From the sequence record MZ868638.1: DNA of 64,000 nucleotides. One strand, given 5' to 3'. Source of the DNA: Escherichia phage vB_EcoM-pEK20. Shown here piece after piece: positions 39,417 to 45,851 of the stretch (position 1 is its first letter; every line of letters begins with the position of its first letter). The translations under genes and the position numbers were made by a program. The notes beneath the pieces are model-generated. The model was not told the DNA's origin and made no database searches. It saw only the letters and a program-made list of their open reading frames with translations.

Positions 39417-40031
39417 ATGTTTAAAGTTAATACTTTTTATAAAATGAATTTTAAAAATGGGGATATTACTCCACGCCTTAAAAACATGTTCTCATATGAC
39501 CTTATCGAGCCTTTTGAAGTTTTAGAAGTTACTGATGCTGGCTCAGTTTGTGAAATTAGAACTTCTGAAGGTAAAATTTATCAGGCTGGTGTTGGTAAAT
39601 TCAGTAATTGTTTTACTTTAATATTCTCGACTGATTTAGATGAGCATTTTATTGAATGTCCTAACCCTAAGGTCCATGAAGTTCCACAACAAGAAACTAA
39701 GAAAAATGGCCCGCATGAATATACGAAGGTTGAAACTCCTCACGGCGTTATGTGGCGACATAACTCTCCTTTCGGAAGTAAAGGAACATTTGCTCAACTG
39801 CCTAAACCGTATGACGATGAAAAATACATCGTCGCCTTTTTATCTGAACAGGGTACTCAAGACCGTGGATGCCAACGTTCCGGTTTATTGAGTGAACTCG
39901 AAGCTCATAACCGAGCACGTGAATTCGTTGAGAAAAATCCTGGTTCTGAAGCTCTAGTCATGAAAGCAATTACTCAATATATCACTGCTCAACCTGTTGT
40001 TCATCCGGTAGAAATTAATTTCATTAAGTAG
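39417..40031 (+). CDS. hypothetical protein
   Basis: 204 aa ORF, GAGGAAA RBS. Confidence 0.6.
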   Translation: MFKVNTFYKMNFKNGDITPRLKNMFSYDLIEPFEVLEVTDAGSVCEIRTSEGKIYQAGVGKFSNCFTLIFSTDLDEHFIECPNPKVHEVPQQETKKNGPHEYTKVETPHGVMWRHNSPFGSKGTFAQLPKPYDDEKYIVAFLSEQGTQDRGCQRSGLLSELEAHNRAREFVEKNPGSEALVMKAITQYITAQPVVHPVEINFIK

Positions 40032-40088: not shown

Positions 40089-40286
40089 ATGAAATTTTTA
40101 ATAGCACAAACAGTCCAATTAAAAGGTGTTGGAATCCCTGGGGTGATTTTTAAAGTTCTCCCTGAATTTAAAACCGGCGCTGGAGTTATCAATGAAGCGT
40201 ATGCTGTTCAATGGGTTGATTGGACTTCTGACATACGTATGGGTAAAGAGTTATCTCCTATTAAAGGGTTGAAACATGTTGAATAA
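40089..40286 (+). CDS. hypothetical protein
   Basis: 65 aa ORF. Confidence 0.5.
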   Translation: MKFLIAQTVQLKGVGIPGVIFKVLPEFKTGAGVINEAYAVQWVDWTSDIRMGKELSPIKGLKHVE

Positions 40287-40488
40287 ATTAATCCAGAAAT
40301 TGTTAGGTACAGAAATGGTTGAAGTTACGTATCGTGTGACTGATGTAAGCCCATGGGCCCGAAAAGTTGAACCATATACTAAAACAATTAAAATGCTGAA
40401 ATATGACGGTGGATTATCTATCAAAGACCGTCTACCGGCTTATGGTCATTGGGCTGATGTTGAAATTATAAGTGTTAAAGATGTCTGA
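40276..40488 (+). CDS. hypothetical protein
   Basis: 70 aa ORF. Confidence 0.5.
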   Translation: MLNKLIQKLLGTEMVEVTYRVTDVSPWARKVEPYTKTIKMLKYDGGLSIKDRLPAYGHWADVEIISVKDV

Positions 40489-40939
40489 GTTAGAGATTAG
40501 AAGCAATTTTAGATGGCCGTCATGTGCATTAAGTAATTTTGCCCAGTGGCCTTTCGTTATGGATGGTATTCAATTCGGAGGTCTTGAAGGATTTCTCCAA
40601 GGATGTAAGGTGAAAAATGTTGAACAACAAAGACGTATATTTAGGCTGTCAGGACTGGCCGCACAGCAAGCTGGAAGGTCTTATGCAAGAGCTCAGGACC
40701 ATGGGACTCTCTTCTGGTTAGGAGTTCCATTTTCAAGATACTCTGAAGCATGGAAAGAATTATATACAAATGCATATTTTGAAGCAGCGATCCAAAACAA
40801 GGGGTTTCGCGATGCCTTACAAGCCTCTAAAGGAAAAATTTTGAAGCACAGCATGGCCAGCCACCTAACAAAAGATGATACAATATTAACTGAAGCTGAA
40901 TTTATTGATGTGTTAAACCTATTAAGAGACTCTTTATGA
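40472..40939 (+). CDS. NADAR / YbiA-like (DUF1768) domain protein
   Basis: 155 aa; motif ALSNFAQWPFVMDGIQFGGLEGFLQGCKV parallels the FSNFAAWP...DG...E.YFQAQKF core of E. coli YbiA as recalled. Confidence 0.5.
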   Translation: MLKMSELEIRSNFRWPSCALSNFAQWPFVMDGIQFGGLEGFLQGCKVKNVEQQRRIFRLSGLAAQQAGRSYARAQDHGTLFWLGVPFSRYSEAWKELYTNAYFEAAIQNKGFRDALQASKGKILKHSMASHLTKDDTILTEAEFIDVLNLLRDSL

Positions 40940-41751
40940 AGCCTACTATTTTGACTGACATTGATGGTGTATGTTTAAGCTGGCAATCTGGACTTCCTTA
41001 TTTTGCCCAAAAATATAATCTTCCATTAGAACATATTTTAAAAATGATTCAGGACGAAAAATTTATTTCTCCTGGTAAACTATTCAATACCGATGATAAC
41101 CTCGGTAAACAATTAATAGAAAAATATAATCGCTCTGATTTTATTCGTTACTTAGCGCCTTATTCGGATGCTCTTCGAGTTATCAATAAACTAAAAGAAG
41201 ACTATAATTTTGTAGCCGTGACGGCGCTAGGTGATTCAATTGATGCTCGATTGAATAGACAATTTAATTTGAATGCTTTGTTCCCAGGCGCTTTTTCTGA
41301 AGTAATGATGTGTGGTCATGATTCGTCAAAGGAACAATTATTTGAACTAGCTAAAACAAAATATAACGTGATTTGTTACGTTGACGATTTAGCTCATCAC
41401 TGTGACCATGCGGCAGAAATTCTTAATGTACCGATTTATTGGTTGGCTCGTGGTGAACGTGATGCCATTCCTCGTACTGCACAACGTGTACACACGTGGG
41501 ATGATATTGAATCTCGTTTGGTTCCACCTGAGCATAATTCAGATTCAGATCGTGAAGACCTTTTAAAACGATTGGCGGATTTGCTTAAAGAATCTGGTAC
41601 AACAAGTCCAGGTGCATGGCCTAATCAAATTGGCACTCCGTCGAATCCGTATACCTGGCGAAACCAAGGACCAACAGATATGCAGCCATGGTGGACGATT
41701 CAAAACTTTCCTTTAGATTCGTCTAAATGGACTTGGTCTATAAATTGTTAA
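40936..41751 (+). CDS. HAD-superfamily hydrolase-like protein with Trp-rich C-terminal extension
   Basis: 271 aa; N-terminal HAD motif I ILTDIDGV; ATGA-coupled to the NADAR-like ORF. Confidence 0.55.
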   Translation: MKPTILTDIDGVCLSWQSGLPYFAQKYNLPLEHILKMIQDEKFISPGKLFNTDDNLGKQLIEKYNRSDFIRYLAPYSDALRVINKLKEDYNFVAVTALGDSIDARLNRQFNLNALFPGAFSEVMMCGHDSSKEQLFELAKTKYNVICYVDDLAHHCDHAAEILNVPIYWLARGERDAIPRTAQRVHTWDDIESRLVPPEHNSDSDREDLLKRLADLLKESGTTSPGAWPNQIGTPSNPYTWRNQGPTDMQPWWTIQNFPLDSSKWTWSINC

Positions 41752-41760
41752 GGGATAATT

Positions 41761-42030
41761 ATGTTTGTAGTTCATGATATTACAGATGGTAAAAACACAA
41801 CGCGTGACTACGGTCACGTTAACATGTTCTTTCGAGACTGGCCATTGTTTCGTTCAGTAAAAGACGCAGAAATATTTAAAGAGTGTGTTGAACAAGGGTT
41901 CATCTACATTTCAGAATATTATGTTGAAGGTCTCGGTAAATGGATTACAACTTATCAGAAAACGCTTAAATCGCTTCTAGATGAAGTGGCTTATAATAGA
42001 ACCGTAACCAAAATCGAGGACATCAAATGA
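41761..42030 (+). CDS. hypothetical protein (30.1 position)
   Basis: 89 aa ORF. Confidence 0.55.
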   Translation: MFVVHDITDGKNTTRDYGHVNMFFRDWPLFRSVKDAEIFKECVEQGFIYISEYYVEGLGKWITTYQKTLKSLLDEVAYNRTVTKIEDIK

Positions 42031-43520
42031 TTTTAGATATTTTAAACCAAATAGCTGCGATCGGTTCTACTAAAACAAAACAAGAAATCCTTAAGAAAAA
42101 TAAGGACAACAAATTACTTGAACGTGTGTATCGTTTAACATATGCACGTGGTATCCAGTATTATATTAAGAAATGGCCAGGACCAGGTGAAAGGTCTCAA
42201 GCGTATGGTCTTCTTGAATTAGATGACATGTTGGATTTTATTGAGTTCACATTAGCCACTCGTAAACTCACTGGTAATGCTGCAATTAAAGAGCTCATGG
42301 GTTATATCGCTGACGGTAAACCTGATGATGTAGAAGTCCTTCGTCGTGTAATGATGCGCGACCTTGAAGTAGGTGCTTCAGTGTCTATCGCGAATAAGGT
42401 GTGGCCTGGACTTATTCAATTGCAACCACAGATGTTAGCATCTGCATATGATGAGAAATTGATTACTAAAAATATTAAATGGCCAGCATTTGCCCAATTA
42501 AAAGCAGACGGTGCTCGTTGTTTCGCTGAAGTTCGCGATGATGGTGTTCAATTCTTTTCTCGTGCCGGTAACGAATACCATGGTCTTACTCTATTAGCGG
42601 ATGAACTAATGGAAATGACTAAAGAAGCTCGTGAAAGACACCCTAATGGGGTTTTAATCGACGGTGAATTAGTTTATCATTCATTTGATATTAAAAAGGC
42701 TGTGAGCTCAGGAAATGACCTGTCGTTCTTATTTGGTGATAATGAAGAATCCGAAGAAGTACAAGTTGCAGACCGTAGCACTTCAAATGGTTTAGCAAAT
42801 AAATCTCTTCAAGGGACTATTTCTCCTAAAGAAGCGGAAGGTATGGTTCTTCAAGCCTGGGACTATGTTCCTTTAGATGAAGTCTATTCTGATGGCAAAA
42901 TTAAAGGTCAGAAATACGATGTTCGTTTTGCTGCTCTTGAAAATATGGCTGAAGGCTTTAAGCGAATTGAGCCAATTGAAAATCAGTTAGTTCGTAATCT
43001 TGACGAAGCTAAAGTGGTTTATAAAAAATATGTTGACCAAGGTCTTGAAGGTATTATCCTTAAAAACCGTGATTCATACTGGGAAAACAAACGCTCTAAG
43101 AACCTAATTAAATTTAAAGAAGTTATTGATATCGCTTTAGAAGTTGTAGGATACTATGAACACTCTAAAGACCCTAACAAATTAGGTGGTGTCGAACTCG
43201 TATCACGTTGTCGTCGTATTACAACCGATTGTGGTTCAGGGTTTAAAGATACAACTCATAAAACAGTTGACGGTGTAAAGGTTCTTATTCCTTTAGACGA
43301 GCGTCATGATTTGGACCGTGAACGATTAATGGCTGAAGCTCGTGAAGGTAAATTGATTGGACGTATTGCTGATTGTGAATGCAATGGTTGGGTTCATTCT
43401 AAAGGACGTGAAGGCACTGTAGGTATTTTCCTTCCAATTATTAAAGGGTTCCGTTTTGATAAAACAGAAGCGGATTCATTTGAAGACGTATTTGGACCGT
43501 GGTCCCAGACAGGTTTATAA
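42027..43520 (+). CDS. 30: ATP-dependent DNA ligase
   Basis: 497 aa; MILDILNQIAAIGSTKTKQEILKKNKDNKLLERVYRLTY... matches T4 DNA ligase; KADGAR adenylation motif. Confidence 0.95.
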   Translation: MILDILNQIAAIGSTKTKQEILKKNKDNKLLERVYRLTYARGIQYYIKKWPGPGERSQAYGLLELDDMLDFIEFTLATRKLTGNAAIKELMGYIADGKPDDVEVLRRVMMRDLEVGASVSIANKVWPGLIQLQPQMLASAYDEKLITKNIKWPAFAQLKADGARCFAEVRDDGVQFFSRAGNEYHGLTLLADELMEMTKEARERHPNGVLIDGELVYHSFDIKKAVSSGNDLSFLFGDNEESEEVQVADRSTSNGLANKSLQGTISPKEAEGMVLQAWDYVPLDEVYSDGKIKGQKYDVRFAALENMAEGFKRIEPIENQLVRNLDEAKVVYKKYVDQGLEGIILKNRDSYWENKRSKNLIKFKEVIDIALEVVGYYEHSKDPNKLGGVELVSRCRRITTDCGSGFKDTTHKTVDGVKVLIPLDERHDLDRERLMAEAREGKLIGRIADCECNGWVHSKGREGTVGIFLPIIKGFRFDKTEADSFEDVFGPWSQTGL

Positions 43521-43763: not shown

Positions 43764-45851
43764 ATGTCTGAACAATTAAATGAAGTGTTTGAATCTGAAG
43801 GCAGTCTTCCTGTCGTCAATTTGAACCCTAAAGCTAAAGTTCCACAAGTCTGGAAAATTGGTGATATCGATACAAACATCGTAGTTCGTTTATTCTCTTA
43901 CCTTTCTGAAGGCGATGCTGTAAAACAAGTTAAACTTGGCGACAAATATGCTCATGTTGTTATTATGAGTCTGTCTGAAAAGGGTAATCTCGCTGAATTG
44001 AAAAATGGCCTTGGTCCTGCTCCTATTGATGCAATCAACACTATTTTCAATACAGTATATGAACAGGTTAAAGCTCTTCGTATGGATGCAGTTCTGTTCC
44101 GGTTCCCTACCAAGAAATTGAAAGGACGTGGACAACAGCTTCAAACTCTTCTTGCTCGTTTAGTTTCTACTAAAACTGGCGGTCGTTTTAAAGTATTGTC
44201 AGCAATGTATCAATTCACAGGTAAACACACCTATGTGATGATGGTTCGTAAAAATGCCAACATTGAAGATATTAAAGGCATCCCTAACATTAACACAGAG
44301 TTGTACACGAAAGTAGATTCTGATGTTGGCGAAGTTTATGTGAGTAAAAAGACTGGTGAAAAGGTCACTAAAGAAACGTCTATCGCTGGTTCTATTGCTG
44401 CTGTAGAAGAAAAACGTAAAGATAAGCCTGTTATTGCTCGTACTAAAATTTCTCGTCGTGCTATTGCAGCAAGTCAATCTTTAGAAGCTGACCGCCAAGA
44501 AGGTGAGTTATTCCAGAAATATGAAAATTCTGCTAAAGAAGTTAGTGGCCCAGCTACAGCCGAATTACTTCCTGAAGCATATGAAATCGTACTAGCCCAA
44601 GCATCATCCACAGCAAAAGGCACTTTAGTTGCTGATATCGAAAATAAGATTTATAATCGTATTGATGAATCCTTTAAATTTGCTGATGAAGTTTCTTATG
44701 GTAGTGTTATTAAGCCATCTTTAGAAAAGTTTGCTAAGAAAATTAAAACTGAAAAAACAACATCTGTTAAAGCATTAGCTGCTTTTGTTGAAGCTGCAAA
44801 TGAAATTGCAGACTCTATTAAAGACGAATGGTTTGAAGATTTTAGACGTGATAATTTCCAACTGCCTGACGACGTTTTAGCTGAAGTATCTGAAAGAACT
44901 TGGAAACAACGTAAATCAGCGTTCTTGTCTAATGTGATGTATACTTATGCCAGAGAATCGGCTAGAGGCACCTTTAATATAACAATGAATCGGGACCCTA
45001 AACAATACTCTGTTGCTGAAAAACGAGCTATTCGTGAATATGCCTCTTCTGCGTATATCGATATCAATAATATGTTGTTAGGTCGTTATAAACCAGATTT
45101 TTACGATGTTGCAGATGAAGATGAAGTTAAACGCGCTATTGATGGTCTTGATTCGGCGTTTTTAAATGGAGACCGTTTACCTGAAGGACTAACGTTATAT
45201 AGAGCTCAGTCTATCAGAATGCCTATTTACGAAGCAATGGTTAAAAATAAGGTATTCTACTTCAGAAACTATGTTTCCACTTCACTAGCTCCTATTATTT
45301 TCGGTGGGTTTAAAGAGAACGTTGCCCTTGGACTTGCTCCTGAAGAAGTTCGCAAAGAGCTTAACATTGACAATAATGACGAAGGTGTTACTATTTCTCC
45401 GAGTCAAGTAAGAACAGCTATGCATGCACCAGAACAAATCCGTGTTAACGTTGGATGGGCTATTGATGGCGCCCATAAAGTTAACGTGATTTATCCAGGA
45501 CAGTTGAGTAATCACCCTAATGAGCAAGAAATTATTTTGCCTAGAGGCATTCTCTTGCAGATAAATAAAATTACAGATGCGTCATCTGACACTGGTGCAG
45601 GTTTAGAATCCAACCTTAAATTTATTCAAGCTGAAGTCATGTCCTCAGACCAGTTAGATGAAGCTGTCATTTATGATGGTGATGTTCTCATGGAAACAGG
45701 CGAGGTGGTTGCTATGACTGGTGAAATCGAATCAGATGAGCCGGTATCGTTCTCCTCGTTTGTAGAAAAAACTAGTGCTCCTAAAGGATTGAAATTGTTA
45801 GCATCTTTAATGGATTTAGAATCAGTTCCGTTTAAATTTGTCCAAGGATAG
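43764..45851 (+). CDS. alt: Alt ADP-ribosyltransferase (packaged, modifies RNA polymerase alpha)
   Basis: 695 aa (T4 Alt 682 aa); C-terminal half matches T4 Alt as recalled (LYRAQ...FVSTSL...EQEIILPRG ART motifs; ends PFKFVQG). Confidence 0.85.
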   Translation: MSEQLNEVFESEGSLPVVNLNPKAKVPQVWKIGDIDTNIVVRLFSYLSEGDAVKQVKLGDKYAHVVIMSLSEKGNLAELKNGLGPAPIDAINTIFNTVYEQVKALRMDAVLFRFPTKKLKGRGQQLQTLLARLVSTKTGGRFKVLSAMYQFTGKHTYVMMVRKNANIEDIKGIPNINTELYTKVDSDVGEVYVSKKTGEKVTKETSIAGSIAAVEEKRKDKPVIARTKISRRAIAASQSLEADRQEGELFQKYENSAKEVSGPATAELLPEAYEIVLAQASSTAKGTLVADIENKIYNRIDESFKFADEVSYGSVIKPSLEKFAKKIKTEKTTSVKALAAFVEAANEIADSIKDEWFEDFRRDNFQLPDDVLAEVSERTWKQRKSAFLSNVMYTYARESARGTFNITMNRDPKQYSVAEKRAIREYASSAYIDINNMLLGRYKPDFYDVADEDEVKRAIDGLDSAFLNGDRLPEGLTLYRAQSIRMPIYEAMVKNKVFYFRNYVSTSLAPIIFGGFKENVALGLAPEEVRKELNIDNNDEGVTISPSQVRTAMHAPEQIRVNVGWAIDGAHKVNVIYPGQLSNHPNEQEIILPRGILLQINKITDASSDTGAGLESNLKFIQAEVMSSDQLDEAVIYDGDVLMETGEVVAMTGEIESDEPVSFSSFVEKTSAPKGLKLLASLMDLESVPFKFVQG

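What the first reader, a model, noticed from the sequence alone, without database searches (positions are those of the whole stretch)
40472..41751. Translationally coupled NADAR/YbiA-like and HAD-like hydrolase pair upstream of DNA ligase
The 155-aa ORF has an SNFAxWP...DG...E.FxQxxK core resembling the NADAR (DUF1768) family, members of which have been reported to reverse ADP-ribosylation of nucleic-acid bases. It overlaps by ATGA a 271-aa protein with a HAD motif I (DIDGV) and an unusual Trp-rich tail. The same window encodes the Alt ADP-ribosyltransferase. The pair could act on modified nucleotides or counter a host ADP-ribosylating defence; this is conjecture.
Basis: inference. Interest (0 to 1): 0.55.

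Follow-up and report, generated by a model that had tools for sequence, protein, structure and literature searches.

The report
Known anti-DarT NADAR gene plus HAD neighbour
The first gene is the already characterised T-even phage enzyme AdfN (gp30.3), which strips ADP-ribose off phage DNA to defeat the bacterial DarTG1 defence. Its overlapping neighbour gp30.2 is an uncharacterised HAD-type phosphatase that published data show is not needed for that job.

Summary
The window comes from an RB69-group (Mosigvirus) T-even phage. The first ORF is gene 30.3 (Pfam Phage_30_3, E=2.9e-69), now named adfN. It is a NADAR-fold DNA ADP-ribosylglycohydrolase, shown experimentally in T4 and T2 to neutralise the DarTG1 toxin-antitoxin defence. 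The copy here is 152 aa, starting at ATG 40481 rather than GTG 40472. It is 96% identical to T4 AdfN and keeps E36, K43, H123 and the C-terminal helix that RB69 loses through a frameshift. It is therefore predicted to be active.

The second ORF is gene 30.2. It has a HAD core with all four catalytic motifs (D8/D10, T96, K132, D150/D151), most like 5'(3')-deoxyribonucleotidases. It also carries a disordered, lineage-variable Trp/Pro-rich tail. Its substrate is unknown.

The ATGA overlap is real, but such overlaps are routine in this operon. Only 18 of 80 related NADAR loci carry 30.2 downstream. In a T4 transposon screen, 30.2 insertions were not depleted under DarTG1 (log2FC -0.12), whereas 30.3 insertions were (-7.25).

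The functional pairing and the link to Alt are not supported.

The parts
40276..40488 (+). Gene 30.4 (70 aa, unknown function). Its stop overlaps the adfN start by 8 nt.
   Evidence: ORF list. PHROG 2042 E=4.6e-34. Annotated 30.4 in moskry, RB69 and T4. T4 insertions are mildly depleted under DarTG1, log2FC -1.79, adj p 0.014, which could be a polar effect.
40481..40939 (+). adfN (gene 30.3): a 152-aa NADAR-fold DNA ADP-ribosylglycohydrolase, full length. Catalytic E36 (40586-88), K43 (40607-09) and the phage-type H123 (40847-49).
   Evidence: Pfam PF08010 E=2.9e-69. 96.1% aa identity to T4 AdfN, and no RB69-type frameshift. E36 and H123 are invariant and K43 is conserved in at least 90% of 59 relatives. 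AF2 pLDDT 93.3. Top PDB folds are YbiA 2b3w, PnNADAR 8bau and Geobacter NADAR 8bat. Function was shown for the T4/T2 orthologues.
40936..40939 (+). ATGA start/stop overlap between adfN and gene 30.2.
   Evidence: Sequence. The same 4-nt overlap occurs in T4. Similar overlaps occur at 30.1/30, 30.4/30.3 and 30.5/30.4.
40936..41520 (+). Gene 30.2 HAD core (aa 1-195). Motif I D8/D10, motif II T96, motif III K132, motif IV D150/D151, with a helical C1-type cap at aa ~16-86.
41542..41748 (+). Gene 30.2 C-terminal appendage: an amphipathic helix (aa 203-220), then a predicted disordered Trp/Pro-rich tail with pLDDT below 50 at aa 227-244, 254-261 and 264-271.
   Evidence: pLDDT is below 50 for 227-244, 254-261 and 264-271. 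The tail is 20 aa or shorter in 17 of 60 relatives, is enriched in P (11.2% vs 4.3%) and W (3.6% vs 1.4%), and cannot be aligned to the T4 tail.
41761..42030 (+). Gene 30.1 (DUF3045), lying between 30.2 and the ligase.
   Evidence: Pfam PF11243 E=1.4e-26.
42027..43520 (+). Gene 30, ATP-dependent DNA ligase (context).
   Evidence: ORF. Annotated as such in moskry, RB69 and T4.
43764..45851 (+). alt, the packaged RNA-polymerase ADP-ribosyltransferase (context only; no demonstrated link).
   Evidence: ORF. Annotation. alt insertions are neutral under DarTG1.

Best explanation
These are two neighbouring genes of the gene 30 (ligase) transcription unit of a T-even (Mosigvirus) phage. They are packed together but do separate jobs.

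1) adfN (gene 30.3, 40481-40939) encodes a single-domain NADAR enzyme. During infection of a host carrying the DarTG1 toxin-antitoxin system, the DarT1 toxin ADP-ribosylates guanines in phage DNA and blocks replication. AdfN hydrolyses the N-glycosidic ADP-ribose-guanine bond using E36, K43 and the phage-specific H123. This restores clean DNA, so the phage replicates. That mechanism was shown experimentally for the T4 and T2 orthologues. For this copy it is inferred from 96% identity, intact catalytic residues and an intact C-terminal helix.

2) Gene 30.2 (40936-41751) encodes a Mg2+-dependent HAD phosphomonoesterase with a C1 cap. Asp at the D+2 position marks it as a phosphatase rather than a dehalogenase. 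It is most like 5'(3')-deoxyribonucleotidases, so the most likely substrate is a nucleoside monophosphate or a similar small phosphorylated metabolite. This is inference. It also has a variable disordered Trp/Pro-rich tail that may dock it to a partner, which is speculation. It is dispensable in laboratory growth and is not needed for DarTG1 evasion.

The ATGA overlap reflects the compact translational coupling typical of this operon, not a two-component system.
For: AdfN identity:
- Pfam Phage_30_3 E=2.9e-69.
- 96.1% aa identity to T4 AdfN, with 32 synonymous against 6 non-synonymous codon changes. The RB69 T-insertion at nucleotide 411 is absent.
- E36, H123 and the S18-N19-F20 motif are invariant, and K43 is conserved in at least 90% of relatives.
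- The family profile hits only YbiA in the PDB, E=0.0036.
- The AF2 model has pLDDT 93.3. Its top three fold hits are the NADAR structures 2b3w, 8bau and 8bat, and everything else is noise.
- 22 of 59 relatives hit Pfam NADAR.

AdfN function in the literature:
- Necessary and sufficient against DarTG1. E36A and K43A abolish rescue. Purified protein removes ADP-ribose from DNA (PMC11257639 and PMC11825919).
- In vitro activity of T4 gp30.3 (PMC11125620).
- T4 transposon screen: 30.3 log2FC -7.25 under DarTG1.

gp30.2:
- All four HAD motifs are conserved.
- The core is modelled with confidence and the tail is disordered.
- HAD-only fold hits, led by cdN/mdN-type nucleotidases.
- Weak direct sequence hits to cdN 2jao.
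- 17 of 52 distant family members hit Pfam NT5C.

Independence of the two genes:
- 30.2 log2FC -0.12 (p 0.61) under DarTG1 and -0.10 in M9 vs LB. It is non-essential, with 72 of 72 TA sites hit.
- 57 of 80 NADAR loci have no 30.2 nearby.
- Serratia phage CHI14 keeps 30.2-30.1-ligase-alt with no 30.3 upstream.
Against: - No experiment was done on this phage's own proteins.
- The window AdfN does not itself reach any score against Pfam NADAR. Superfamily placement rests on the family profile, the fold and the literature.
- gp30.2 falls below Pfam's HAD_2 cut-off (15.5 vs 23.8 bits) and does not hit NT5C directly.
- The published work postulates an unidentified T-even-encoded factor needed for full AdfN activity. 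A redundant contribution from gp30.2 is not excluded by a single-gene transposon screen.
Confidence: 0.85

Rival explanations
1. AdfN and gp30.2 form a functional two-enzyme module. gp30.2 would be the T-even-specific helper that AdfN needs for full activity, for example by localising or stabilising it through its tail, or by dephosphorylating a by-product of ADP-ribose removal.
For: The ATGA translational coupling is conserved in T4, RB69 and this window. The Nat Commun paper concludes that T-even phages likely encode another factor required for full AdfN activity. Both genes are present in roughly the same about 1,450-1,500 phage records.
Against: T4 insertions at 71 TA sites in 30.2 are not depleted on a DarTG1 host (log2FC -0.12, p 0.61), while 30.3 insertions vanish. 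57 of 80 NADAR loci have no 30.2 within several kb, and 4 more are separated from it by 0.7-1.2 kb. CHI14 keeps 30.2 next to the ligase while its single NADAR hit is not there. Overlaps of this kind join most genes of the operon.
Confidence: 0.06
2. gp30.2 is a DNA-end 3'-phosphatase, like the HAD domain of T4 polynucleotide kinase, that prepares nicks for the adjacent DNA ligase.
Against: Pnkp-type phosphatases rank only 56th-59th and align to just 125-129 core residues. gp30.2 has a helical C1 cap (aa ~16-86), which in HAD enzymes typically encloses small substrates. Distant relatives are assigned to Pfam NT5C. Conserved order near the ligase may simply reflect T4-like core synteny.
Confidence: 0.08
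3. AdfN counterbalances the phage's own ADP-ribosyltransferases (Alt, ModA, ModB) by reversing their modifications.
For: alt lies 2.8 kb downstream in the same orientation. Iyer et al. [quoted passage not shown]
Against: The demonstrated AdfN substrate is ADP-ribosylated DNA and its phenotype is specific to DarTG1. adfN is non-essential without DarTG1, with 27 of 28 sites hit, and alt is neutral under DarTG1. In most related loci the NADAR gene is not near alt or the ligase.
Confidence: 0.02

Closest known systems
AdfN (anti-DarT factor NADAR; T4/T2 gp30.3), Johannesman, Carlson & LeRoux 2025 (PMC11825919)
   Same: It is the orthologue. Length is the same (152 aa) and aa identity is 96.1%. The start (MSELEIRSN) and C-terminus (LLRDSL) match. 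E36, K43 and H123 are the same. The position between 30.4 and 30.2 and the overlaps are the same.
   Different: Six amino-acid substitutions. The host phage is a Mosigvirus rather than a Tequatrovirus. Unlike the type Mosigvirus RB69, whose copy is frameshifted and inactive, this copy is intact. Activity of this allele is untested.
DarG1 / DarT-associated NADAR antitoxins and PnNADAR (PDB 8bau, 8bat), Schuller et al. 2023
   Same: The same NADAR fold and the same catalytic Glu and Lys. The same reaction is reported: removal of ADP-ribose from guanine in DNA.
   Different: It has no N-terminal extension and no adjacent DarT toxin, so it is an orphan. It has His in place of the Asp or Glu in the last strand. 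T4 AdfN cannot replace DarG1 in uninfected E. coli.
E. coli YbiA (PDB 2b3w; Pfam NADAR PF08719)
   Same: Best sequence-profile hit (E=0.0036) and best fold hit (Foldseek E=3.5e-4, TM 0.67). It shares the SNF...DG...E.F.Q..K core.
   Different: Only 17% identity. YbiA-type proteins are described as riboflavin-intermediate N-glycosidases and do not protect against DarT1 in vivo.
5'(3')-deoxyribonucleotidases cdN/mdN and bacterial homologue 3bwv (Pfam NT5C PF06941)
   Different: Identity is only 15-19%. The window protein does not reach NT5C or HAD_2 thresholds. It has an extra helix and a disordered Trp/Pro-rich tail. No activity has been measured.

Membership tests
Pfam Phage_30_3 (PF08010) / AdfN orthologue group | Score above the curated cut-off across the full-length profile | tested here: met
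   231.7 bits against a cut-off of 36, E=2.9e-69, profile positions 1-138 of 138.
Pfam Phage_30_3 (PF08010) / AdfN orthologue group | Full-length protein with the C-terminal helix that the inactive RB69 allele lacks | tested here: met
   152 aa ending LLRDSL as in T4. The T insertion at nucleotide 411 of RB69 is absent. Helix 138-151 is modelled.
NADAR superfamily | Sequence-profile similarity to NADAR/YbiA | tested here: inconclusive
   The window protein alone does not hit Pfam NADAR at E<=1, hits YbiA at E=0.34 and hits TIGR02464 at E=0.13. The family profile hits YbiA at E=0.0036 as the only PDB hit. 22 of 59 relatives hit PF08719, best E=1.5e-7.
NADAR superfamily | NADAR alpha+beta fold | tested here: met
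   The model has pLDDT 93.3. The top three PDB hits are 2b3w, 8bau and 8bat (probability 1.00, 0.99, 0.92). The next hits have probability <=0.03.
NADAR superfamily | [quoted passage not shown] | tested here: met
   E36 is invariant, K43 is conserved in at least 90% and H123 is invariant across 59 relatives. E36A and K43A inactivate T4 AdfN. His is described as the phage-type residue.
NADAR superfamily | Hydrolysis of ADP-ribose from guanine in DNA | not testable with these tools
   Reported for the T4 orthologue in vitro and in vivo. Not measured for this allele.
DarTG1 toxin-antitoxin operon | Adjacent DarT ADP-ribosyltransferase toxin gene | tested here: not met
   The neighbours are 30.4 and 30.2. 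None of the four local proteins matches a PADLOC defence model apart from one chance-level hit (AdfN to a Type I specificity subunit, E=0.034). AdfN is described as an orphan antitoxin.
HAD superfamily phosphatases | Motif I DxD, with Asp at D+2 acting as general acid/base | tested here: met
   D8-I-D10-G-V. D8 and D10 are invariant in 60 close relatives and in 52 distant ones.
HAD superfamily phosphatases | Motif II Ser/Thr, motif III Lys, motif IV acidic pair | tested here: met
   T96 is conserved in at least 90%, K132 is invariant, and D150/D151 are conserved in at least 90%.
HAD superfamily phosphatases | Rossmann-like HAD fold with a cap | tested here: met
HAD superfamily phosphatases | Pfam HAD model above the gathering score | tested here: not met
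   HAD_2 scores 15.5 bits against a cut-off of 23.8, E=0.019.
NT5C 5'(3')-deoxyribonucleotidase family (PF06941) | Profile match to NT5C | tested here: inconclusive
   The window protein has no hit at E<=1. 17 of 52 distant relatives found with the gp30.2 profile hit NT5C, best E=4.2e-10. The PDB hit to cdN 2jao is only E=0.5-0.6.
NT5C 5'(3')-deoxyribonucleotidase family (PF06941) | Nucleoside monophosphate phosphatase activity | not testable with these tools
   No biochemical data on gp30.2 were found; a search for 'gp30.2' returned 0 papers.

The most novel reading that the evidence does not exclude
gp30.2 is more than a housekeeping nucleotidase. One possibility is that it is one of several redundant T-even factors that let AdfN work fully inside infected cells, docking through its disordered Trp/Pro-rich tail. 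Another is that it is a counter-defence phosphatase that destroys a phosphorylated nucleotide-derived immune signal or toxic nucleotide. In either case its loss would be masked in single-gene screens on laboratory hosts.
Probability: 0.08. Interest if true: 0.55.

Novelty: already known. Interest (0 to 1): 0.17.

Why it matters
The main element is already explained. adfN is a published, mechanistically characterised anti-DarTG1 counter-defence gene.

The window adds one practical point. This RB69-group phage carries an intact adfN, unlike RB69 itself, so it should resist DarTG1. That matters for host-range prediction among therapeutic T-even phages.

gp30.2 remains an open question. It is a widespread uncharacterised HAD phosphatase: about 1,440 phage records hold it, and 1,060 clusters match in a 1.84-billion-protein library. 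Finding its substrate would assign a function to one of the roughly 100 unknown T4 genes. Nothing here suggests a new kind of system.

Tried and rejected
- Direct Pfam, NCBIfam and PADLOC scans of the two window proteins gave no significant NADAR, NT5C or defence-model hit. AdfN hit only Phage_30_3, and gp30.2 hit only a sub-threshold HAD_2. PHROGs places both in 'unknown function' families.
- A sequence-profile search of the PDB with the gp30.2 family was not significant: best hits were an amidase at E=0.14 and cdN at E=0.63.
- The promoter and terminator scan was uninformative: 22 sites found against 18.8 expected.
- I considered gp30.2 as the missing AdfN helper. I rejected it as the leading idea because of the T4 transposon data and the lack of conserved adjacency.
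- I considered a link to Alt and rejected it.
- I looked for gp30.4 and gp30.5 as conserved NADAR partners. They co-occur only in the close E. coli T-even group.
- A literature search for 'gp30.2' found nothing.

Full report
**Source and identity of the region.** A 1.9-kb stretch around the finding is 95-98% identical to many Escherichia Mosigvirus (RB69-group) genomes such as TH12 and moskry. It matches 732 phage records in all. In moskry, RB69 and T4 the same order is annotated: 30.5/30.4 - 30.3 - 30.2 - 30.1 - 30 (DNA ligase) - alt.1 - alt. The two ORFs of the finding are therefore T-even genes 30.3 and 30.2.

**Check of the observation.**
- The mechanical ORFs are at 40472..40939 (155 aa, GTG) and 40936..41751 (271 aa). 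The ATGA overlap at 40936-40939 is in the sequence.
- The quoted motifs are present, and the tail of ORF 2 has 6 Trp and 9 Pro in 76 residues.
- One correction: T4 gene 30.3 is 459 nt and starts MSELEIRSN. This corresponds to ATG 40481 in the window, so the protein is 152 aa. Its start overlaps the 30.4 stop by 8 nt, exactly as in T4.
- Gene 30.1 (DUF3045, E=1.4e-26) lies between 30.2 and the ligase.

**ORF 1 is AdfN.**
- It matches Pfam Phage_30_3 over the whole profile (E=2.9e-69).
- The literature held here shows that gp30.3 of T4 and T2 was renamed AdfN, for anti-DarT factor NADAR. It is necessary and sufficient for T-even phages to escape the DarTG1 toxin-antitoxin defence. E36A and K43A mutants are inactive. 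The purified protein removes ADP-ribose from DarT1-modified DNA. RB69 is DarTG1-sensitive because a T insertion at nucleotide 411 truncates its copy by 15 residues (PMC11257639 and PMC11825919).
- An independent study showed in vitro activity of T4 gp30.3 and described His as the phage-type replacement of the last-strand Glu/Asp (PMC11125620).
- A T4 transposon screen found 30.3 insertions lost on a DarTG1 host (log2FC -7.25, adjusted p 0).

**My own tests of ORF 1 agree.**
- The window protein is 96.1% identical to T4 AdfN, with 32 synonymous and 6 non-synonymous codon differences. It lacks the RB69 insertion.
- Among 59 relatives, S18-N19-F20, E36-G37-F38, Q40 and H123 are invariant, and K43 is conserved in at least 90%.
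- The family profile hits only YbiA in the PDB (E=0.0036).
- The AlphaFold model (pLDDT 93.3) has as its only meaningful fold matches the three NADAR structures 2b3w, 8bau and 8bat.
- 22 of 59 relatives also hit Pfam NADAR.
- The window protein alone does not hit Pfam NADAR.
- Conclusion: an intact, almost certainly active adfN.

**ORF 2 is gp30.2, a HAD phosphatase of unknown substrate.**
- Direct Pfam evidence is weak (HAD_2 at 15.5 bits, below the cut-off).
- Sixty relatives show D8 and D10 (motif I, DxD) and K132 (motif III) as invariant, with T96 (motif II) and D150/D151 (motif IV) nearly invariant.
- The model is confident for residues 1-195 and contains a helical cap insert. A helix at 203-220 and a disordered tail follow.
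- Foldseek finds 122 PDB matches at E<=1e-3. All 50 listed are HAD-fold entries, led by cytosolic and mitochondrial 5'(3')-deoxyribonucleotidases and the bacterial homologue 3bwv.
- An exhaustive profile search finds 1,060 clusters at E<=1e-3, mostly proteins of 190-215 aa. Of 52 distant members, 17 hit Pfam NT5C, best E=4.2e-10.
- I therefore call it an NT5C-like HAD phosphomonoesterase. A (deoxy)nucleoside monophosphate is the most likely substrate, but this is inference.
- The Trp/Pro-rich tail is real but not a conserved domain. It is 20 aa or shorter in 17 of 60 relatives, is compositionally enriched in Pro and Trp, cannot be aligned between this phage and T4, and is predicted disordered.

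**Are the two a functional pair?** The evidence says no.
- Overlaps of 1-11 nt join most genes in this block: 30.5/30.4, 30.4/30.3, 30.3/30.2 and 30.1/30, and the same holds in T4. The ATGA overlap is therefore not special.
- I examined 80 IMG/VR loci encoding a gp30.3-type NADAR. In 14, gp30.2 lies immediately downstream. In 4 it lies 0.7-1.2 kb away. One has a weak HAD hit upstream. 57 have none despite at least 3 kb of downstream sequence, and 4 are uninformative.
- gp30.2 itself stays next to the ligase in 17 of 19 loci. It does so even in Serratia phage CHI14, where no gp30.3 lies upstream.
- In the T4 HIDEN-SEQ data, gene 30.2 (71-72 TA sites, all hit, non-essential) is not depleted under DarTG1 (log2FC -0.12, p 0.61) or in minimal medium (-0.10). 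It is not mentioned as a hit for any tested defence.
- alt is likewise neutral under DarTG1 (-0.01).
- The co-location of NADAR genes with ARTs in T4-like early regions had already been noted in 2022.

**Residual openness.** The published work concludes that AdfN works fully only in T-even infection and that this is independent of DNA modification. It therefore postulates an unidentified T-even factor. gp30.2 is a poor candidate given the screen, although redundancy cannot be excluded. Gene 30.4, directly upstream and overlapping adfN, is mildly depleted under DarTG1 (-1.79, adjusted p 0.014). This is most simply a polar effect but has not been tested.

**Verdict.** The NADAR/anti-DarT and HAD assignments are right, but the first is already published knowledge. 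The proposed coupling of the two enzymes, and the link with Alt, are not supported. Novelty: already known, with gp30.2 an uncharacterised member of a known superfamily. Interest is low.

Noticed in passing
window 40276-40488 (gene 30.4) and 40089-40286 (gene 30.5): In the published T4 transposon screen, insertions in 30.4 are significantly depleted on a DarTG1 host (log2FC -1.79, adj p 0.014). Insertions in 30.5 trend the same way (-3.0, not significant). This could be a polar effect on adfN, which overlaps 30.4 by 8 nt, or a genuine accessory role. Both genes co-occur with adfN only in close E. coli T-evens.
   Followed up: partly
window 40617-40844, + strand, frame of T4 ORF 30.3': The T4-annotated internal ORF 30.3' (75 aa, alternative frame inside 30.3) is interrupted by a stop codon in this window. 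It is therefore not conserved and is probably not a real gene.
   Followed up: yes
window 39417-40031: This 204-aa ORF has no Pfam match. It sits where T4 and RB69 have the 95-aa gene 30.6. A homologue was found in only 1 of 80 related loci, so it looks like a variable insert in the 30.x block.
   Followed up: partly
L001 (Escherichia phage moskry) 3360-3740; protein clusters P0004-P0006: Some public annotations start gene 30.3 at an internal Met, giving 126 aa. This cuts off the conserved P13/SNF motif region of the NADAR domain and is a likely start-codon mis-call.
   Followed up: no
window 40481-40939 versus 40936-41751: Conservation between genera is uneven. AdfN is 96% identical between this Mosigvirus and T4. 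The gp30.2 core is about 87% identical over its first 198 aa to T4-type (Tequatrovirus) phages, and its tail cannot be aligned to the T4 tail. This suggests strong purifying selection on, or recent exchange of, adfN.
   Followed up: partly
gp30.2 relatives (alignment A2), C-terminal tails: The variable tails carry recurring short motifs in different lineages, for example GIGTGIEYLNRQPTA, ESYRNVKPxDLRAYY and LLNKVTANDS. These may be lineage-specific docking peptides.
   Followed up: no
L047 4709-5305 (IMG/VR contig of 165,977 bp): A distant HAD relative of gp30.2 (E=1.1e-17) lies about 0.7 kb upstream of the NADAR gene. This is the reverse order from T-even phages.
   Followed up: no
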